From positions 4,340,001-4,404,000 of the forward strand of contig NC_081332.1 in NCBI RefSeq assembly GCF_022539665.2: 64,000 nt of DNA, written 5' to 3'. This stretch comes from Daphnia carinata (taxonomy: Eukaryota). Each line of letters starts with the position of its first letter. Position 1 is the stretch's first letter. The translations under genes and the position numbers were made by a program. The notes below the pieces were generated by a model. That model worked only from the letters and a program-made list of their open reading frames with translations. It made no database searches and was not told the DNA's origin. Positions 14,301 through 24,840 of the stretch are shown here, one piece after another.

Positions 14301-16313
14301 CGACAATAACGAGCTGAACCAGAAGCTTCTGTCCAACATCAACGCTTCCGGAAAACTGCACATGGTGCCGGCTTCCGTTCACGGCCGATTCGTCATCCGT
14401 TTCTGCGTTTGCGCTCAGGATGCCAAGGATGCTGACATTGATTACGCGTGGGATGTCATCACCGACTTTGCCACCGAGCTGCTCGAAGCCGAGATCGTCA
14501 AGGAGAAATCGGGATTGCCATTGGATGTTCTGGAGAACAGCAACGAGGAGGTTGGTCAGGTCGCACACAAGGTGGAAATTTCGGAGCTGATGGATCTAAT
14601 GGAACGCGTCCATATGCCTATTCAAAAGCAAAACAGTATTGCCAGTATTGGAAGGCAAGGCAGTCTGGCTAGTGTCGGAAGGCAACAAAGCCTTGCGATT
14701 ATCGGAAGGCAACAGAGCCTTGCAAGCATTGGAAGGCAACAGAGCCTCGCCTATATCGGAGAGGTTGGCAACAACCTTTCGGATGGTGGAGAGCAAGAGA
14801 TGGCCAACAAGCCAAGACAGAGACCAAGCCTTGCCAGGAGACTCACAAAGCGTCAGTTCAGTTTTACGGACACCATAGAATTCGTAGGGATGGTCAACAC
14901 CGCTCAAGATGAGAGCATGAATCCTTGAAGAGATTTAAAAATACGATTTTCTTTAGCAATATCTCAACCATATGCAGTTTATACAGACATTTCTTACTTT
15001 TAAGTTTTCGTGGGAATTGACAGGAGCAAAAAGATACATCTGGGTAAATTAAATAGTGCAAGAGACTAACGAAAGAAACAAACTAATATTTATCTCGACT
15101 GTGGAATGGATGCTGACGATGTCATGAATTCTCTAAACAGTCGGTTTTATTGATTGGACTGACTAGATGGTACGAAAACAGATACTTTATGTAGGACTAA
15201 CTTCGCAAAAAAAGCAATTTTGCAGTATACTTACTTTTATACTGTATCGATATATTGCGTAGTTAAATATTTTAAACAAGGGGTGGGGGATCGGGTTGCA
15301 TCAAGTATTGTGATTTTACTTTCATTTTATTTCTTTTTCCTCTTTCATTTATCCCCCACCAAAAAATATTATTTCTCCAGTTTTCTCTCGATTCGGCTTA
15401 TGTTTTCTTTGTTTTGTGTGTACATTCAACCGTTTTTACATTTTCTTTTTTCTTTTTTACTTCTTTCTTCGAATTTTGAGTTTCCTTTTGTTTTGACATT
15501 AATCTTGGTTCTATTCCTTGCAATTCAATGAACATTTCCCGAAAAATTTCGTTTTTTGTTTTTTATTTGCCTTCTTTCAGTTGTAGCTCATTTCGACCTT
15601 CATATGGGGTGAAGTGGTTGGAGGCTTAGCCTTTAAAAAGGGTTTGCCTAGGTTACCTATTCCTGTTGGTTACTCTCTAATAAGCTGACTTGATGAGGTT
15701 TCATGTCGGGTTCGGGGCAATTTCTTTTCTAGGTTTCAACGAATCCGAAATTGGCCGCAGCTGCTAGAAGAAGAGCCCTTCGCAGAAGTGTTGGAAACGA
15801 CTTGGAGTACAAACGTTCTTTCTTTGTCCGCATGGTCAGTGATCCCAAAATGTATAACCCCAAAATCGTAGCGAACTTGTCCTACTACTCGGATTCTAAT
15901 CCATTAACGGTTGCGTCAACCCAAGATAAAAAAGATACGCCGTAAGTATAAACGTCCAATCTTGGACTGTGTGCAATCAATCGTTTCGTAAATCATTCCT
16001 GAATTTCGTATTTTCCATTCAAGATCTTCTTGGATCAGCTGGCCACTGGGTCTTCTTCTGCAAGGGGTATTTGATGACCATTCGACCGCTAGACTTCGGT
16101 AATTATCACGAATAAAGTGAAGGACATTTTTTTTGCAACAGTTATCACTCACAGTTGCAACTGTTTGATAGTTTCCGCAATTGGGATACCAAAGTAACTC
16201 TGAAACCAACTGGATCGAATCATTACAACAGCACTCGACAAAGGTCAAAGTCTCCGTATCGAGATATTGATTCGACTGGTTCCAGCCGTTCTGAATCCCC
16301 CGAAAAATACTAG
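11389..16313 (+). CDS. Tdc2: Tyrosine decarboxylase, Tdc2-type (group II PLP-dependent decarboxylase)
   Basis: [53 protein letters not shown] (PLP lysine), [16 protein letters not shown]. Downstream exons 15733-15941, 16024-16108 and 16172-16313 encode the invertebrate TDC tail motifs [26 protein letters not shown] and RFRNWDT. Confidence 0.93.
14626..14760 (+). repeat. 5 x 27-bp coding tandem repeat, consensus peptide RQQSLASIG
   Basis: [45 protein letters not shown], in the open frame ending at 14928. Confidence 0.95.
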
Positions 16314-16414: not shown

Positions 16415-17683
16415 TTATATCACGATGCTTGGATCCCATGCATATTTGCATCGCGTATCCAGGGTATTCAGGCGATTTATTTCTTTTTCATCCAAAAGAA
16501 AGTCTAGTGCAATGTTTTCTTCAACATGAGCAGGATCAAGTGATTTGGGTAACACTCCTAAAACAAACAAGTATAACCACATTGAACTTCATACCAGTAA
16601 TATAGAGTAAATCGTTGTGATTATTATTCTTACCAATTCCCTGTTGTGTTGCCCATCTTAAAAGGATCTGGGCAGGAGATTTGTTATGGTTTTTGGCAAT
16701 TTCTTTAACCACTTCATCGTTTAACAATGGGTTACGGTTGTCATCTACTGTGGTACCCAAAGATGAGTAGGCCTGGTAATGAATATTGTGGTGGGCACAA
16801 TATTCTACAAGTTCTGGTTGGACATAGTGTGGGTGGTGCTCAACCTGTTACGTAAAAAAATATATAAAGTGCAAGTGATATTCAGCTTTGCATTATTAGT
16901 AGCCCTAAAACTAGTTCATACCTGAAGCACATGGGGAAAAGTCCGAGCATAAGATTTCATTTCTTCTAGATGTTTCAAACAGTAATTGGACACTCCAATT
17001 GCTTTAATAAGGCCTTTATCATAGCAGTCTTCTAGTGCCTTCCAACTTTCTTGTCTCATTTGGATGTTAACCACATTATCTACTTTTTTCCCACCAGTCC
17101 CAGGCCAGTGAATTAAATACAAGTCCAAGTAGTTGGTTTTCAAAAGACCAAGAGACCTTTTCACTGAATCAATGCATGGCTGGTATCCTTGGTTTCGGGG
17201 GGCTGGTAAAAGCAATTACTGTTACATCTGGGAAGCTGCACAGAAAAAAGGAAAAGGTGTATTCTTACACAGTTTCGATGTTAGAAATAAATCAGTTCTT
17301 TGTAGTTTGAATTTGGGTAAAAGCTCTCCAAGGGCTGATCCAATGTCCTCTTCATTATGATAAATCACTGCAGAATCTATGATTCCCCACATAAGAAAGA
17401 GAAGTAAAACATGGGAAATTGAAACAAACCATGATATTTATAGCACCTATTAATCTATACCCTGCTTTTAATGCAGCATCAAGGCATTTTAAAATGGTCT
17501 CAGGTCCTTTGATTCTGAATGTACCAACTGAATAACAGAGGAAAATAAATCATAGTTGACTAAATAGAAATTAAAACGTAAGCTCTCGAAGTGAAGGACG
17601 ATAACGATGTTGCAAAAACAGTGAATTATATTTTTACATCCAATTAACGGCATAGAAACTCCGTTTCTTAAATTAACAGCCAT
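16415..17683 (-). CDS. Aldo-keto reductase family protein
   Basis: MAVNLRNGVSMPLIG, GYRLIDSAVIYHNE, LFLTSKL, YLDLYLIHWP, IKAIGVSNY, QVEHHP, KSPAQILLRWATQQG, VLPKS. Ends KYAWDPSIVI* (TAA at 16415-16417). Confidence 0.95.
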
Positions 17684-18243
17684 GCCTGCGCATTGCGTGA
17701 TGTTTATTTACAGACAAATTTGGCACTTGGAGTGGTATTTGATATAAATAATAATGATATAGGAAATCAGAAACACAGTTAGCGTTCGATTGGCTGTGAT
17801 CGGGCCGATCATGGCAATATTTTACACCTGTTGTGAGTTGGGAGCGGGTTGCACATCCAGACTGAAGCCCCACTGGGGTATGAGGCGCAAAAGACTGTCC
17901 GAAACCCGGCCGAGCCCACCACCGAAGACCCTAAGCCCAGTCGTACCAGAATAAACCTTACCCGATTGGCGTTAGCTCCAAGCCCCAAACATACTATACC
18001 AAACGCAAACAAATGAAAGGTGTGTTAAGGGATGCAACGAAAATTAAATAAAGTTGGTCAAAGTGAAAATATCTACACGTCAAGTTTCATTTGAATTTCA
18101 GCTGACAGGTGGCGTAGTTTTCAGCTTAGTTGTCACTTTTTTCTGCCTTTCCGGGTATGCTTTAAATTGCCGACATATTCTTACATTTGTTTCATAGAAG
18201 AACACATTTTATTTACTTGCAGACTTGTAATAATTCAGTGAAG

Positions 18244-19054
18244 ATGACTCAGAAACAGAAAGCACTCTCGAAAGAAGAGGAAATACTTTTGCAAGATTTC
18301 AGCCGAAATGTCTCCACCAAATCAAATGCCTTGTTCTACGGCAATGCATTCATCGTTTCTGCAATTCCGATTTGTAAGTTAATCTCCAAGTTAATAAAAA
18401 TACATTTACTAGGACATCAAAGAACTAAAATATCTTGTGTAACCACAATAAAGGGCTATTTTGGAGAATTCATTTCATGGACCTACTGACTTCTTCACCG
18501 TTGTTCCTCATCATCACATGCTTAAGCACTTACTTGGTTTCTTTTGCTTACAAGAAAACCAAATTTGTCTTGAAACACAAGGTAACTGAAATAGAAATAT
18601 TTTTAACTGTTTCATGCCAACAAGTATTTTTCTGTAAAGGTGGCTGTTAAACGGGAAGATGCCATTAGCCGTGAAATCTCAAAGATGATAGCCGAAGACA
18701 AAAAAATGAATAAGAAAGAGAAGGATGAAAGGTTACTAAGCAGCACATTATTTTCATATGTTTGAGGCTGATATCTAAATATATTTCTTAGGGTTTTATG
18801 GAAAAAAAATGAAGTCTCTGACTATGAGGCCACTACTTTCTCCATTTTTTACAACAATGCACTTTTCCTTGCAGTTGTGATTGGACTAAGTTTTTTCCTT
18901 CTTAAATCATTTTCCCCTTCATTGTAAGTAAAATATTTCAGTTACTTGATAGCAATACCATTAACTTATTGCTTTTTACATTTACAGTAATTACATCTTG
19001 TCTGTGGGTCTCTCCAGTGGTCTTATTGCCCTGCTTTCCACAGGCACCAAGTAA
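18244..19054 (+). CDS. SSR3: Translocon-associated protein subunit gamma (TRAP-gamma)
   Basis: [88 protein letters not shown]. Five exons. Confidence 0.97.
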
Positions 19055-19470
19055 AGATATCTGCCGGGAATATTAAACAGTCTGTATTTCGAGTAACACA
19101 AAGAATGCTTTGAAATACAGTTTAAAGTTACTTAATTACATACCATGCTTCTCATCTAATATAGAATTGCTATTAACTAGTATTAATATGCAGATAAAGA
19201 TAGCACGGTGTTCGATATTTGGATATTAAAGCAGTTCAGGTAAATTTATTTTCTGGAAGGTACATGACCCAAGCAACTTTTTTTCCCTCAACAGGAATTT
19301 TTATAAGTTTAAGCCCAGTTCGAATTTTAATAAATCGTAAAGTCAAGCTCTCAATAAGATCTAAATTGAAAACGTACTTGATTTTCGTTTTCCGCTTATG
19401 AATTAAATACAAATACGGTTGATGGCTGTATATGGGTTTTAGAATTTAAAATTTAGAAGAAAAAATAGTG

Positions 19471-19770
19471 GTTATTTGTCGGCGTAAATTTTTTTGAAAG
19501 TGGTTGGAAGGCTATGTGTAGACTTTATAGTTTTTGAGTAATCTTAAATATAAATAAGGTGCGAATCGAAACCATTACTAGCGCGCCAGTACGCTACAGC
19601 GCTAGCGTGACACATCAAACTTTTTTGATTATTCAAAAACCATAAAGTCTACGTAAAACCTAATTTCGTTTTTCGTGTTCCTTGTTAAATTCTGAACCAT
19701 AATCATATATAGTTATGTAGATCTAATGATATTATTTTTTAATAGGAAAAAAATTTAAGCCCGACAAAAT
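19471..19770. repeat. Small nested inverted repeat (MITE-like) at the left edge of the large foldback
   Basis: TTATTTGTCGGCGTAAATTTTTTT (~19472-19494) mirrors AAAAAAATTTAAGCCCGACAAAAT (~19747-19770). GTAGACTTTATAGTTTTTGAGTAATC (19518-19543) mirrors GATTATTCAAAAACCATAAAGTCTAC (19627-19652). Confidence 0.75.
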
Positions 19771-20269
19771 CAGCCCGGCCTTCTGTTTTTTACGGTATAT
19801 TCAAAAAGTATAAGCTTAATATAAAGATAAACCAGATTTTCGTGATCAGCGATCAATTTCGCATTGGAATAATGTACTTTTAAGTAAATCTAGAATTTGA
19901 CGAAAATTGAAAAAGTGGGAAGGCTATAGCTTTCTTACTTTTTCAATTTTTGGACATTCTGTTTTTTACGGTTTATTCAAAAAGTATAAGCCTAATATAA
20001 AAATAAAATTTAATTTTGGCCAAATTTTTCATTTTGCTTAAAATATATGGCATATGGCAATCCGTTTTATATGGCAATCCGTTTTACATAAAAAAAAAAA
20101 ATGGCGGAAAAAAAAATCGCACTTTTTTCTCTTTTTTCTACTCGTAGCCATCTATCAGTCGGTTTCGTTATTACAGGCATGTAAGCAATTTGAGTTAATT
20201 GTATCCCATTAGCAGTTAATTGAGTAGCGTGGCTGGAGAACAACGCGTGGCTGGAGGAACAATTGAAAA

Positions 20270-21530
20270 ATGGATAAGATAATAAAACAAAAAAATGGTA
20301 AGTATAAACATTATTATATTGGTTTTCAATTATTAATTATTGTTTATTAGATCAAATTATGAAGCTGTAGGCCCAGTTATTGGAACAACACAAAATATTA
20401 GATAACAAAGCTAAGGATCGTAGGCCTAACACGTAATGATTCTATTTATTTGCTTTTATTCATTCGTGTTTTGTAGCTCAAATTTTGAGTCTTCAAGCTC
20501 AGCTAGGGGAAAAGAACAAATTGGAACGGAACAGTTTCCAAACAGTGAAGGAGGTTTTTCAAAACTCATCTCTAACTGAACGTAAGGATGAGTTGGCATT
20601 AGGCGAACACAGCCAGGTACCTAAAGTTTTCAAATAAGAATTCAAAATAAGTATAGAATTTTAAAAAACAATTATTTATTGTTTAGTTATTCAGTCCACC
20701 ACCTGACAGTGTGTTAAATTTAAATTCTGTTAGTGCTGCACTAAAAGAATCGTTAGTAATAAGCTCATGCAGTGAAGGAAGTGAACAATTGTGGGACCGT
20801 ATTTGGGCCGAAAATGGGTGTGGTACAGAAACCCAGAAATGGCACAAGTTCAACATGAAACATGGATTAGGTACTTTTCGGTTTTTTGTCTAGCGAAAAA
20901 GTATTTTTAATGCTATTATTTTGCATTCACAGATTTTAACGGGGGATCAGATCAAGTCTGGAAGTGTTACAGGATGGAAGAGTGAGCCTACAGATGAAAA
21001 AACACTGAGAGTGCATTACCGTAAGGTGTGAGGTAAATTAATAGAGTAATGCAAATTGCCTAATGAGAAGTACCATCTTGTGTTAATGAATCCAGTACAA
21101 CAGCAATCCTTTATAGTTCTGTCACAGCTAGAAGCCTCAAATAATTCTGCTTCTCTGTCTAAAGAACAACTTGTCCTTTACGTTCAGAGTGTTGGGGAAA
21201 CTGGGTACTTAAATGGCCCTAAAGATGTTTTAATTTTGCTGCTATTGCAGAGATGAACATCATACAGGGACTCTTTAGGTATGAAAGGATTTTTCTTCAA
21301 ATAATTTTGAATTTATGACGAAGAATTTCTCCTCCTTTTTGCCAACCAGGTCTTATCTACCAAAAAAAATTTTATCCAATAGGAAAGGATTTTCATGTAA
21401 TGGGAACACAACTATCAACAATGCAACATTCTACAGGTGCTAGTTTATCATTCAAGAGCCTTATACAATGAAGTTAATCTGCAATTTGTATGTCCTTTCC
21501 CAAGCTTCCACCAGAAGTTGAATCTATGAG
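20270..21530 (+). pseudogene. Degenerate intron-containing gene in the left arm
   Basis: ATG at 20270 followed by a chain of GT-AG introns. Exons read DQIMKL*AQLLEQHKILD, AQILSLQAQLGEKNKLERNSF, LFSPPPDSVLNLNSV...WDRIWAENG and ILTGDQIKSGSVTGWK. Stops and frameshifts are present. Confidence 0.6.
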
Positions 21531-22402
21531 TCATGTAAGTTCCATGATCAACAATTGATGTGTTTAACAGTGTTGTTTTTCTTTTCTCAATATAGGTTAA
21601 TAGTAACATTGGATCTGAAAAGATTCTTGGTTGGGGCAAGACACTGAATAAATTGTATTGATTGGATGGATGACATGACATTTCTATACTTAATTCGGAT
21701 TCCCCAGACGGTATTTGATATTAAAAAAATTGAAGTGCATATCTGGGCTCCCTTCTTTTCTGAAGCCCCGTTTCCCCTTGACTCATAATAAGCCCGTAGG
21801 GGGTCATGCCCCTACTGTACGGTATATATAAAAACAACATATACCGAGGTTTGGAGGGCTCTGGCCGGAAAGGGGACGTGGGGTGCCGCTTCGTCCGATG
21901 ATGTGTTCACGGAGGGTGACGTGGCTGCCCACAAATCCGAACTAAAGGTTAATCGCTCCTGTAAAAATGTTCCAAATCTTCAGCTCTTCTTCCGGCTTCT
22001 CTTAGCCAATCACCGGGTAATCTCCCCGGTGGGTCAACAAGGCAGTGTCTCCCCCTGCCTGGGTTGACGGCAACTTTTGAAAGGGCTATTGTGCCTTTTT
22101 AAAGTTGCAAAAATAATTGTAATGTGCAGAGAATTGTCAATAAATTTTTTTTTATAAAATGTTTTTTGCAAAATTTTTTTCTTTCATTGTCTGTGTTCGC
22201 TTTGTTCACACATTACATTTATCAACTTTTTTTTTTATTTAGCTTGCTCAATTCATTTTTATGGTTTTTGCCACCGTTGTATCGCTTATCTGTTAGTATT
22301 CAATTAGTATTTATTACACTTCTTGAATTCTTGAACTTAGACAAGGAACAACGTGTATTACCTTGATATTTTCTGAAGTAATTTTATACTTGTACATTGT
22401 TT

Positions 22403-22475
22403 TACTGGTATGGGAATCGATCCCCAGACATTCAGCGTGCAACGCCGATGCTCTAACATTGAGCCACGAGATATA
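22403..22475 (-). other. tRNA-like unit 1 (degenerate, anticodon position TGC)
   Basis: Minus strand TGGCTCAATGTTAGAGCA-TCGGC GTTGCAC GCTGA-...GGGATCGATTCCC: A box, anticodon-type stem-loop, B-box-like motif. Poor acceptor stem. Confidence 0.7.
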
Positions 22476-22574
22476 TCTATCATATTATTTCTATTATCGC
22501 ATATCATATGTTATAGTCTAGGATGTTTATGTAGTCTTTCACAAGTATATATTTATCTTTTTATAGCTTTCATA

Positions 22575-22645
22575 AGGTTCATAGCTCTTTGGTAGAGCAT
22601 TCAGCTGCGGTAACTGTTACCCTGGGTTCAAACCTTAGTAGATGT
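22575..22645 (+). other. tRNA-like unit 2 (degenerate)
   Basis: TAGCTCTTTGGTAGAGCA (A box/D arm) followed by CTGGGTTCAAACCTTAG (B box/T arm). Confidence 0.65.
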
Positions 22646-22726
22646 ATAAAGTTCTACGTTTCAATTTTATTCAAAGTGTAAATGCAAGTCCGCAAGTGAC
22701 TAGAAAAAAGCTAACCTGACATCATA

Positions 22727-22798
22727 TGATTCATGGCTCATTGGTATAGCATCGGCGCGGTATGCCGAACATCCAGGGTTCGATCCCTGGATAATAAT
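22727..22798 (+). other. tRNA-like unit 3 (degenerate, anticodon position GGT)
   Basis: TGGCTCATTGGTATAGCA-TCGGC GCGGTAT GCCGA-ACATCCAGGGTTCGATCCCTGG. Perfect 5-bp stem with 7-nt loop and canonical GGTTCGATCC B box. Acceptor stem only partly paired. Confidence 0.75.
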
Positions 22799-23589
22799 TG
22801 AATGCTTCCAGATAAACTATGCTTACAGGAAACAATGCTTACCATTAAACGTGGCATAAACAATAAAGGAGAATTGAGAAAGATAAATAAAAAAAAAGAT
22901 GATAAATGTAATGTGTGTAAACAGACAGTGAAAGAAATAAAATTTGCAAAAAAAATTTATAAAAACAAATTTATTGACAATTCTCTGCACATTACAATTA
23001 TTTTTGCAACTTTAAAAAGGCACAATAGCCATTTCAAAAGTTGCCGTCAACCCAGGCAGGGGGAGACACTGCCTTGTTGACCCACCGGGGAGATTACCCG
23101 GTGATTGGCTAAGAGAAGCCGGAAGAAGAGCTGAAGATTTGGAACATTTTTACAGGAGCGATTAACCTTTAGTTCGGATTTGTGGGCAGCCACGTCACCC
23201 TCCGTGAACACATCATCGGACGAAGCGGCACCCCACGTCCCCTTTCCGGCCAGAGCCCTCCAAACCTCGGTATATGTTGTTTTTATATATACCGTACAGT
23301 AGGGGCATGACCCCCTACGGGCTTATTATGAGTCAAGGGGAAACGGGGCTACGGAAAGGAAGGGAGCCCAGATATGCACTTCAATTTTTTAAATATCAAA
23401 TACCATCTGGGGAATCCGAATTAAGTATAGAAATGTCATGTCATCCATCCAATCAATACAATTTATTCAGTGTCTTGCCCCAACCAAGAATCTTTTCAGA
23501 TCCAATGTTACTATTAACCTATGCTGAGAAAAGAAAAACACCATTAAGCATCTCAATTGTTGCTCATGTGACTTACATGACTCACAGAT

Positions 23590-24840
23590 TCAATTTCTGG
23601 CAGAAGCTTGGGAAAGGCCATACAAATTGCAGATGAAAATCATTGTATAAGGCTCTTGAATGATAAAATAGCACCCATAGAATGTTGCATTGTTGATAGT
23701 TGTGTTCCCAGTATGCTGAAAATCCTTTCCTATTGGATAAATTTTTTTTTAGATTAGACATGGTTGGCAAAAAGCAGGAGAAATGCTTTGTCATAAATTC
23801 AAAAAATTTTCAAGAAAATTCCTTTCATACCTAAAAAGTCCATGTATGATGTTCATCGCTGCAATGCCAACGAAATGAAACATCTTTAGGGCCATTTAAG
23901 TACCCAGCTTCACCAACACTCTGAACATAAAGGACAAGTTGTTCTTTAGCAAGAGAAGCAAAATTATTTGAGGCTTCTAGCTGTGACAGAACTATAAAGG
24001 ATTGCTGTTACACAGGATTCATTCACACAAGATGGTACTTCTCATTAGACAATTTGCATACTCTATTACTTTACCTCATACCTTAATAGTAATGCACTTT
24101 CAATGTTTTTCAACTGTAGGCTCACTCTTCCCTCCTGTAACACTTCCAGACTTGACTTGATCCCCCGCTAAAATTCTGTGAATGCAAAATAATAGCATTA
24201 AAAATACTTTTTCGATAGACAAAAAACCGAAAAGTACCTAATTCATGTTTTATGTTGAACTCGTGCTATTTCTGGGTTTCCGTACCACACCCATTTTAAG
24301 CCCAAATACGGTCCCACAATTGTTCAGTTCCTTCGCTGCATGGACTTATTACTAACAATTCTTTTAGTGCAGCACTAACAGAATTTAAATTTAACCACTG
24401 TCAGGTGGTAGACTGAATAACTAAACAATAAATAATTGTTTTTAAAATTCTATACTTATTTTGAATTCTTATTTGAAAAGTTTAGGCTCCTGACTGTGTT
24501 CTCCTCCTGCCAACTCATCCTCATGTTCAGTTATGGATGAGTTTTGAAAAACCTCCTTCACTGTTTGGAAACTGTTCCGTTCCAATTTGTTCTTTTCCCC
24601 TACTGAGCTTGAAGACTCAAAATTTGAGCTACAAAACACAAATGAATAAAAGCAAATAAATAGAATCATTACGTGTTAGGCCTTACCGATCCTTAGCTTT
24701 TTGTTATCTAATATTTTGTGTTGTTCCAATAACTGGGCCTACAGCTTCATAATTTGATCTAATAAACAATAATTAATAATTGAAAACCAATATAATAATG
24801 TTTATACTTACCATTTTTTTGTTTTATTATCTTATCCATT
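23590..24840 (-). pseudogene. Degenerate intron-containing gene in the right arm (mirror copy)
   Basis: Reverse complement of 20270-21530 with scattered substitutions and indels. Shares the in-frame TAG (24739-24741). Confidence 0.6.

What the first reader, a model, noticed from the sequence alone, without database searches (positions are those of the whole stretch)
22403..22798. Three divergently arranged tRNA-like units at the palindrome centre
Seen: one minus-strand and two plus-strand ~70 nt units with A and B boxes. Units 1 and 3 are homologous and keep the TCGGC/GC(C/T)GA stem with a 7-nt loop, but carry different anticodon-position triplets (TGC vs GGT), lack the conserved U33 context in unit 3, and have poor acceptor stems. 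Established: A+B boxes recruit TFIIIC/Pol III, as in tRNA-derived SINE heads and insulators. Inference: outward-firing Pol III promoters or TFIIIC sites facing both arms, i.e. antisense to the arm gene, rather than functional tRNAs.
Basis: partly seen in the sequence, partly recalled or inferred. Interest (0 to 1): 0.75.

Follow-up and report, generated by a model that had tools for sequence, protein, structure and literature searches.

The report
Palindromic transposon carrying tRNA promoter boxes
Three broken tRNA look-alikes that keep their promoter boxes sit at the centre of a 5-kb palindrome in a water flea (Daphnia) genome; the palindrome is likely a non-coding-capacity-reduced, IS3EU-like jumping element copied to many chromosomes, and the boxes would act as a central roadblock that keeps transcription of its two facing gene copies apart.

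Summary
Three tRNA-like cores (22466-22414 minus; 22582-22634 and 22734-22786 plus) are the only A+B-box matches in 64 kb (0.02 expected). They are not tRNA genes: 2, 5 and 3 of 7 acceptor pairs, below ARAGORN and Rfam thresholds. They fill the 576-bp spacer of a palindrome (arms 91.6% identical) whose ends read TATGG..CCATA, the IS3EU terminal signature. Each arm holds a broken copy of an inward-reading spliced gene with at least 64 annotated paralogues in Daphnia carinata, 7 of them as consecutive gene-id pairs (0.2 expected). A D. magna relative joins this domain to an IS3EU-type transposase HTH. No 6-bp target duplication or transposase is present, so it is IS3EU-like, not filed as a member. 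Best reading: TFIIIC/TFIIIB sites carried by a palindromic DNA transposon, likely a Pol II roadblock; neutral hitch-hiking is nearly as likely. DNA of other copies could not be fetched, so family-wide co-occurrence is only indirectly supported.

The parts
22411..22466 (-). tRNA-like unit 1 (D arm 4/4, anticodon arm 5/5 with loop GTTGCAC, T arm 5/5 with 6-nt loop; no acceptor stem; weakened A and B boxes)
22582..22638 (+). tRNA-like unit 2 (D arm 4/4, anticodon arm broken, T arm 5/5 with three G-T pairs; canonical A and B boxes); T4 terminator at 22665
22734..22789 (+). tRNA-like unit 3 (D arm 3/4, anticodon arm 5/5 with loop GCGGTAT, T arm 5/5 with 6-nt loop; canonical A and B boxes; no acceptor stem)
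   Evidence: six X1 contigs read G at 22747, which would restore the fourth D-stem pair
22275..22850 (.). 576-nt spacer between the arms, holding the three units; units 1 and 3 plus their 3' flanks align in inverted orientation (68% over 111 nt)
20053..22274 (+). left arm; starts TATGG (17-nt terminal motif duplicated at 20053 and 20070)
22851..25050 (-). right arm, 91.6% identical to the left; ends CCATA at 25050, where 7 X1 contigs run on into unlike flanks
20270..20994 (+). left copy of the arm gene (coiled-coil N-terminus, 110-180 aa in annotated paralogues), spliced; premature TAG at 20368 and frameshifts
   Evidence: intron 20869-20931 skipped by X1 contigs
24116..24839 (-). right copy of the arm gene; same premature TAG (24741) plus further stops
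   Evidence: mirror intron 24176-24237 skipped by X1 contigs
21764..22082 (.). 319-nt tract identical in both arms (mirror about 23032-23350), 52% GC, a row of hairpins (fold z -4.95 and -5.70 for 21770-22180)
22139..22144 (+). AATAAA, likely poly(A) signal of the left arm gene (mirror 22975-22970 on minus)
   Evidence: function inferred
19452..20045 (.). outer modular repeats, incl. a 153-nt hairpin 19509-19661; 65-73% like 25055-25352 in inverted orientation; relation to the element unresolved
18244..19054 (+). flanking host gene, TRAP-gamma (SSR3), 3' end towards the element
25600..26416 (-). flanking host gene, DUF92 (TMEM19-like), 3' end towards the element; limits approximate

Best explanation
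The three units are tRNA-derived A+B promoter boxes without acceptor stems, lying at the centre of a 5-kb palindrome that is likely a non-autonomous, IS3EU-like DNA transposon spread over the Daphnia carinata genome, and they would bind TFIIIC (and upstream TFIIIB) to form a central roadblock for the two inward-running Pol II genes of the arms. Steps: (1) not tRNA genes, boxes and spacing kept - shown (about 0.97); (2) the palindrome is a transposon-derived unit with IS3EU-type ends - inferred from ends, flank heterogeneity and a D. magna relative (about 0.75); (3) the units travel with the element in most copies - inferred from indirect signs (about 0.65); (4) they recruit TFIIIC/TFIIIB and stop read-through from one arm into the other, which would otherwise give a 2.2-kb hairpin RNA and invite RNAi against the whole family - untested (about 0.4 given 1-3). 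The element was probably built by inverted duplication of a monomer [end - gene - head-on unit], unit 2 being an older tandem copy of unit 3; the arms are since homogenised in patches by gene conversion.
For: Boxes: only 3 A+B matches in 64 kb, all 53 nt; the three units are most alike in the A-box/D-arm and B-box/T-arm and least in the anticodon arm (u1-u2 9/13 and 7/13 against 4/22; u2-u3 11/13 and 10/13 against 6/22; u1-u3 11/13, 9/13, 15/22). Ends: TATGG at 20053/20070 and CCATA at 25050 match IS3EU ends TAYGG..CCRTA (PMC12730594, passages; TA..TA and 6-bp TSD in PMC10045372, passages); 7 X1 contigs stop matching at 25050 and go on into unlike sequence (median 255 nt, agreement 0.45). Family: 14 of 25 candidates scored, all D. 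carinata, 85-95% identical; 64 gene ids seen over 10 contig lengths, 7 consecutive id pairs against 0.21 expected (0 of 20000 random draws), five of them giving one identical protein. Transposase link: residues 77-126 of the family profile match D. magna P0059 (E 1.3e-7), whose residues 55-164 resemble HTH regions of rva_4 (PF24764) integrase-core proteins by features (0.93) and predicted structure (TM 0.66-0.83). Centre in other copies: X1 contigs cover the spacer, six contigs cover 22747, one joins 22277 to 22358 with 31 other letters, one joins 22849 to 22733. Roadblock precedent: yeast TFIIIB/TFIIIC stop Pol II at 132 of 272 tRNA genes (PMC5052057, passages); TFIIIC depletion gives read-through (PMC4228148, abstract). 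Gene conversion: identical runs of 319 and 165 nt against a shuffled longest run of median 60, max 150, and a premature stop shared by both arms.
Against: No DNA of any other copy was obtained, so orientation of the paired genes and presence of the units there are not seen. Consecutive gene ids show neighbours, not palindromes; local tandem copies would give the same, and the random control ignores such clustering. No 4-8-nt target duplication for any TAYGG/CCRTA pair of ends (one chance 4-mer with an internal site); the 7 nt outside each end are inverted, not direct, copies. No transposase remnant in the arms: tblastn with P0059 hits only the shared N-terminal domain, Pfam finds nothing in 12 arm frames at E<=1 beyond one 0.08 hit. 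P0059 is a single gene prediction and may be chimeric; a search for longer relatives of it found none among 754 candidates. X1 is one sample, laid at 80% likeness, where joints and short sides can come from other repeats. Unit 1's boxes are decayed. Stem covariation over 3 units is not above shuffles (30/500 to 295/500). The roadblock precedent is yeast and depends partly on the NNS pathway, which animals lack (recalled). Both arm genes here are broken, so this copy has little to protect.
Confidence: 0.42

Rival explanations
1. Neutral hitch-hikers: a tRNA pseudogene or tRNA-SINE head was caught next to the 3' end of the gene in the element's ancestor, was duplicated with it (tandem, then inverted) and is simply decaying; the boxes look conserved because they were invariant in the source tRNA and the time has been short.
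For: Unit 1 has lost the D-loop GG and has a variant B box; the spacer is far more diverged than the arms (68% against 92%); no covariation signal; units 1 and 3 run 270-300 nt to the first T run through A-rich sequence, as a SINE body and tail would.
Against: Acceptor stems are gone in all three while D/T arms and exact 53-nt spacing survive, and the anticodon arms diverge most, which random decay would not favour; three copies were kept in 400 nt.
Confidence: 0.33
2. One reading: the units are active Pol III promoters firing outwards to make antisense RNA that silences or tunes the arm genes.
For: Orientation is outward and opposite to the arm genes; units 2 and 3 have canonical boxes; units 1 and 3 have no T run for 300 and 274 nt.
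Against: Terminators sit within about 30 nt of the arm poly(A) signals and unit 2 ends inside the spacer, so overlap is a few dozen bases of 3' UTR at most; a selfish element gains little from silencing itself; no stranded read data were available.
Confidence: 0.1
3. The units are independent SINE or tRNA-pseudogene insertions peculiar to this locus and unrelated to the family of arm genes elsewhere; the palindrome is a local inverted duplication.
For: No target duplication at the palindrome ends; no second copy was seen as DNA.
Against: Units share unusual marks (G32 and 6-nt T loop in 1 and 3; 81% over 43 nt between 2 and 3 including 5' flank; 15-nt 5' flank 11 of 3000 shuffles, 3' flanks of 1 and 3 24 of 3000; five other flank comparisons not significant); variant X1 contigs link arm end and spacer; paired identical genes on several chromosomes.
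Confidence: 0.12
4. Functional or unusual tRNA genes (for example Thr-GGT, Ala-TGC).
For: Units 1 and 3 keep D, anticodon and T stems; ARAGORN calls unit 3 tRNA-Thr(GGT) at 85% of its threshold.
Against: No acceptor stem, G32, C33 in unit 3, 6-nt T loops; at the same relaxed threshold ARAGORN makes 8 calls in the window, so that call is noise-level; below Rfam gathering.
Confidence: 0.02

Closest known systems
IS3EU/GingerRoot DNA transposons (PMC10045372 and PMC12730594, passages read; PMC11934779, passages read)
   Same: TAYGG..CCRTA ends, inverted repeats longer than 30 bp, dispersed copies, a D. magna relative of the arm domain joined to an rva_4-type transposase HTH
   Different: No transposase and no 6-bp target duplication in this copy; almost the whole element is one inverted repeat with the same gene in both arms; internal tRNA-type boxes are not mentioned in the passages read
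C. elegans extra-TFIIIC sites on CeRep3 repeats (PMC6950938, passages read)
   Same: tRNA-pseudogene-like repeats with both A and B boxes, clustered, proposed to act on chromatin rather than make tRNA
   Different: There TFIIIC binding without Pol III is measured; CeRep3 is an interspersed tRNA-like repeat, not described in those passages as the centre of a gene-bearing palindrome
Yeast tDNA/ETC roadblocks to Pol II (PMC5052057, passages; PMC4228148, abstract)
   Same: The proposed mechanism: TFIIIC/TFIIIB downstream of a Pol II unit stops read-through
   Different: Host tRNA genes and ETC sites in yeast, NNS-assisted; here boxes inside a mobile element of a crustacean, untested
Helenus/TRIMp3 non-autonomous LTR elements (PMC10886601, passages read)
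   Same: A non-autonomous mobile element carrying tRNA-like sequence conserved around boxes A (TRGCY, YGG) and B (GGTTC), anticodon not matching isotype
   Different: Retroelement with direct LTRs, PBS and PPT, where the boxes serve as its promoter; here a DNA-transposon-like palindrome with boxes at the centre
Dada transposons (PMC3706591, part 1 of 4 read)
   Same: DNA transposon of Daphnia associated with small-RNA genes
   Different: Dada inserts into intact U6/U1/tRNA genes with 6-7-bp duplications; here tRNA-like units are inside, none is split by an insertion
tRNA-derived SINE heads (own knowledge)
   Same: A+B boxes with lost acceptor stem followed by a long A-rich stretch
   Different: No target duplication or clear tail found; independent dispersal not testable

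Membership tests
cytosolic tRNA gene | 7-bp acceptor stem | tested here: not met
   2, 5 (two G-T) and 3 of 7 pairs
cytosolic tRNA gene | D, anticodon and T stems | tested here: inconclusive
   met in units 1 and 3 (4/4 or 3/4, 5/5, 5/5); unit 2 anticodon stem 1/5
cytosolic tRNA gene | pyrimidine 32, U33, 7-nt T loop (consensus recalled) | tested here: not met
   G32 and 6-nt T loop in units 1 and 3, C33 in unit 3
cytosolic tRNA gene | passes ARAGORN / Rfam RF00005 threshold | tested here: not met
   0 calls; 24.8 and 23.3 bits against 29
Pol III type-2 internal promoter / extra-TFIIIC site | A box and B box at tRNA spacing | tested here: met
   units 2 and 3 fit TRGCY..YGG and GGTTC (motifs from PMC10886601); unit 1 deviates in both
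Pol III type-2 internal promoter / extra-TFIIIC site | TFIIIC binding in vivo, with or without Pol III | not testable with these tools
   needs ChIP or CUT&RUN
IS3EU/GingerRoot | TAYGG..CCRTA (TA..TA) termini | tested here: met
   20053/20070 and 25050; boundary supported by X1 loose ends
IS3EU/GingerRoot | terminal inverted repeats longer than 30 bp | tested here: met
   2.2-kb arms, 17-19 nt perfect from the end
IS3EU/GingerRoot | 6-bp target site duplication | tested here: not met
   none for any pair of candidate ends; flanking 7 nt are inverted copies
IS3EU/GingerRoot | DDE transposase (rva_4 type) in the element or an autonomous partner | tested here: inconclusive
   absent from this copy; only an indirect link through D. 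magna P0059
IS3EU/GingerRoot | dispersed copies sharing both ends | tested here: inconclusive
   gene family dispersed over 10 contigs; ends of other copies not seen as DNA
tRNA-derived SINE | tRNA head with A/B boxes | tested here: met
tRNA-derived SINE | independent dispersed copies with tail and variable-length target duplications | not testable with these tools
   no genome held; none elsewhere in the window
Helenus/TRIMp3 | two direct LTRs with PBS and PPT | tested here: not met
   repeats are inverted; no long direct repeats around the units
Dada | insertion splitting an intact small-RNA gene with a 6-7-bp duplication | tested here: not met
   no split tRNA or snRNA at the ends

The most novel reading that the evidence does not exclude
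D. carinata carries a young family of palindromic, IS3EU-derived DNA transposons, each with two facing copies of one spliced gene, that has kept a cluster of tRNA-type TFIIIC boxes at its axis as a built-in transcription barrier, so that a long inverted repeat can spread and be expressed without making the hairpin RNA that would silence it; with similar AI-noted cases in Ginger and Helentron-like elements this would be a general, undescribed use of Pol III factors by DNA transposons.
Probability: 0.22. Interest if true: 0.75.

Novelty: new variant of a known kind. Interest (0 to 1): 0.45.

Why it matters
tRNA-type promoter boxes are known in retroelements (SINEs, Helenus) and as host insulators, not, in the papers I could search, as internal cargo of cut-and-paste DNA transposons. 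If the boxes are family-wide and bound, the element scatters dozens of TFIIIC sites over the genome and shows how a long gene-bearing palindrome could avoid making double-stranded RNA. The family also explains about a hundred 'uncharacterized' D. carinata gene models as transposon cargo. If the boxes are neutral, it is an ordinary decayed repeat.

Tried and rejected
No whole genome is held for this window, so other copies could not be read. Sequencing-run search: no RNA holder listed; run X2 gave nothing useful (4 records, all on a poly-T run). X1 depths were not used to rank parts or to place transcript ends, since contig depth cannot do that. Locus searches with the arm family alignment or D. 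magna relatives found no confirmed locus in metagenome contigs (0 of 127 and 0 of 152 pattern matches) or viral contigs (0 of 39, 79 and 3). A motif shared by units 1 and 3 matched 3 viral contigs, all phage tRNA clusters (tRNA-Gly in two): generic tRNA likeness, not a viral origin. The downstream arm exon (23834-24007) found no relative among 18 candidates. AlphaFold models of the arm protein (pLDDT 45) and of P0058 (37) were too poor to search. ESM Atlas gave no hit above 0.77 for the arm protein. P0063, one of the 10 profile hits, is a TPR protein and was dropped as a coiled/helical chance match. Rfam found no ribozyme or other family in 19000-26500 (two further hits at E 2.2 and 3.6 are chance level). 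Covariation test on three units was inconclusive. Assembly artefact rejected: arms differ at 199 of 2237 alignment columns with arm-specific lesions. Dada, Helenus and functional tRNA readings rejected as above. Literature searches listed no paper on this family or on tRNA boxes in IS3EU elements; two searches listed only 25 of 56 and 20 of 36 papers, judged by title and abstract start; Repbase, where IS3EU families are deposited, could not be searched; no supplements were read.

Full report
Setting. The window is Daphnia: host genes around the finding match NDUFS1-type, pyridoxal decarboxylase, aldo-keto reductase, TRAP-gamma, DUF92 and ankyrin families, and the arm gene's only close relatives are D. 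carinata records. No assembly is held. Between TRAP-gamma (stop at 19052-19054) and the DUF92 gene lies a palindrome: 20069-22274 against 22851-25051, 91.6% over 2226 columns.

The observation. Three tRNA-like cores occupy the 576-nt spacer: unit 1 on minus (22466-22411), units 2 (22582-22638) and 3 (22734-22789) on plus. They are the only A+B matches in the window (0.02 expected from 100 shuffles; pattern written after seeing them), each 53 nt from position 8 to the end of the B box, and a profile finds no fourth. They are not tRNA genes: acceptor pairs 2, 5 and 3 of 7; G32 and 6-nt T loops in units 1 and 3; broken anticodon stem in unit 2; no ARAGORN call and Rfam scores of 24.8 and 23.3 against 29, over model positions 8-63 only. 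Relaxed ARAGORN calls are noise (8 in the window at 85%).

Relations among the units. Units 1 and 3 share 39 of 53 positions and align with their 3' flanks in inverted orientation (68% over 111 nt; flank alone 24 of 3000 shuffles): they are the decayed inner continuation of the palindrome. Units 2 and 3 share 81% over 43 nt including 5' flank (15-nt flank 11 of 3000 shuffles): an older tandem copy. The other five flank comparisons were not significant (230 to 2965 of 3000). Identity is highest in the boxes and lowest in the anticodon arm. Stem covariation is not distinguishable from shuffles with three sequences.

The arms. Each arm holds an inward-reading spliced gene (ATG 20270 and 24839). 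Run X1, guessed as DNA by the tool but with contigs that skip GT..AG introns of the host genes and so probably RNA (my inference), has 2288 records laid on 16500-27500 at 80% likeness, 1386 of them under 90% alike, and contigs that skip the arm intron at 20869-20931 and its mirror (sides 25-26 nt). A 59-aa exon finds 14 clusters among 25 candidates, all D. carinata, 85-95% identical. The listings (only 15 of 30 and 15 of 39 members of the two largest clusters were shown) give 64 gene ids on 10 contig lengths after leaving out 2 ids of a later series; 7 are consecutive pairs against 0.21 expected, and five pairs give one identical protein, a sixth an identical but shorter one. This fits a paired unit dispersed over chromosomes but does not show orientation. 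Both window copies share a premature TAG (20368, 24741) and identical tracts of 319 and 165 nt, longer than any of 2000 shuffles (max 150): patchy gene conversion between arms.

What kind of element. The arms begin TATGG and end CCATA, the IS3EU signature TAYGG..CCRTA (PMC12730594, passages); IS3EU ends are TA..TA with 6-bp duplications (PMC10045372, passages). Seven X1 contigs match up to 25050 and then run into unlike sequence, marking that base as a family boundary. The whole-library profile search gave 10 hits: 2 own-family, 7 from D. magna, D. sinensis or unnamed Logan records that share one exon or the other, and 1 dropped TPR protein. One, D. magna P0059, continues into a region that resembles the HTH part of rva_4 integrase-core proteins (features 0.93; TM 0.66-0.83 to such clusters). 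That rva_4 marks IS3EU transposases is my recall. Against membership: no target duplication (the 7 nt beyond each end are inverted copies), no transposase remnant, no long relative of P0059. It works like a non-autonomous IS3EU derivative; I do not file it as a member.

Do the units travel with it? Not shown directly. X1 contigs cover the spacer; six cover 22747 and all read G, which restores the D stem of unit 3; one joins the arm's inner end (22277) to the spacer (22358) across 31 other letters; one joins 22849 to 22733, possibly a tandem of unit 3 (joint kind not shown). These point to variant copies with the same centre, from one sample at loose likeness.

Mechanism. Antisense regulation is unlikely: unit 2 terminates at 22665; unit 1 meets T4 at 22173 and T5 at 22113 around the AATAAA at 22139; unit 3 meets T5 at 23001, 26 nt past the mirror AATAAA. 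The geometry fits a barrier better: two Pol II units converge on an axis where divergent units 1 and 2 leave 101 nt for back-to-back TFIIIB. In yeast TFIIIB and TFIIIC block Pol II at 132 of 272 tRNA genes (PMC5052057, passages), and TFIIIC depletion causes read-through (PMC4228148, abstract); in C. elegans tRNA-pseudogene repeats bind TFIIIC without Pol III (PMC6950938, passages). Read-through here would give a 2.2-kb hairpin able to silence the family (inference). I put this at 0.42, neutral hitch-hiking at 0.33, locus-specific insertions at 0.12, antisense at 0.10, real tRNAs at 0.02.

Novelty. tRNA-like boxes in mobile elements are known for SINEs (recalled) and Helenus (PMC10886601, passages); Dada targets such genes from outside (PMC3706591, part 1 of 4); a tRNA-TE unit in icefish is a looser parallel (PMC12527291, abstract and passages); IS3EU structure is called largely unexplored (PMC11934779, passages). 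Ten searches listed no paper on this family or on boxes inside IS3EU elements; Repbase could not be searched. Earlier AI notes report boxes in Ginger and Helentron-like elements of other genomes; they are unchecked leads and lower the uniqueness while raising the chance of a general theme. Verdict: real feature, new variant of a known kind, interest 0.45.

Noticed in passing
window 21764-22082 and mirror 23032-23350: A 319-nt, 52% GC tract identical in both arms, in the arm gene's 3' part, folds into a row of hairpins (z -4.95 and -5.70); no Rfam match. Could be a structured RNA element, protein-binding palindromes or just the latest conversion tract.
   Followed up: partly
window 19452-20045 and 25055-25352: Modular repeats outside the TATGG ends, 65-73% alike in inverted orientation, with a 153-nt hairpin at 19509-19661 and a 70-nt hairpin at 19892-19960; multi-copy in X1. 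A separate MITE-like family or sub-terminal part of a larger, older element.
   Followed up: partly
window 20045-20086 and 25051-25057: The terminal motif is duplicated (17-nt tandem on the left) and preceded on both sides by the same 7-mer in inverted orientation instead of a target duplication; X1 also has a joint 25057 to 25017 with 7 letters between. Unexplained.
   Followed up: partly
P0058, P0061 (D. magna): Share the arm gene's third exon but continue into a different, unassigned domain, while P0059 shares the fourth exon and continues into a transposase-type HTH: the arm gene may be a patchwork of 5' parts of two genes of an ancestral element.
   Followed up: partly
window 21025-22082: Further intron-like stretches and open frames of 50-91 codons follow the annotated stop in both arms; no homologue found for the one searched.
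   Followed up: partly
window 14625-14760: Four to five 27-nt tandem copies inside the last coding exon of the pyridoxal-dependent decarboxylase gene give a 9-residue repeat (family D13).
   Followed up: no
L002:956-1030, L003:956-1030: Phage tRNA-Gly(GCC) genes match the 23-nt D-arm motif of units 1 and 3; taken as generic tRNA likeness.
   Followed up: yes
window 40000-64000: Dense long poly-A/poly-T runs with strong AT skew through the introns of an ankyrin-repeat (CAMTA-like, label recalled) gene on the minus strand.
   Followed up: no
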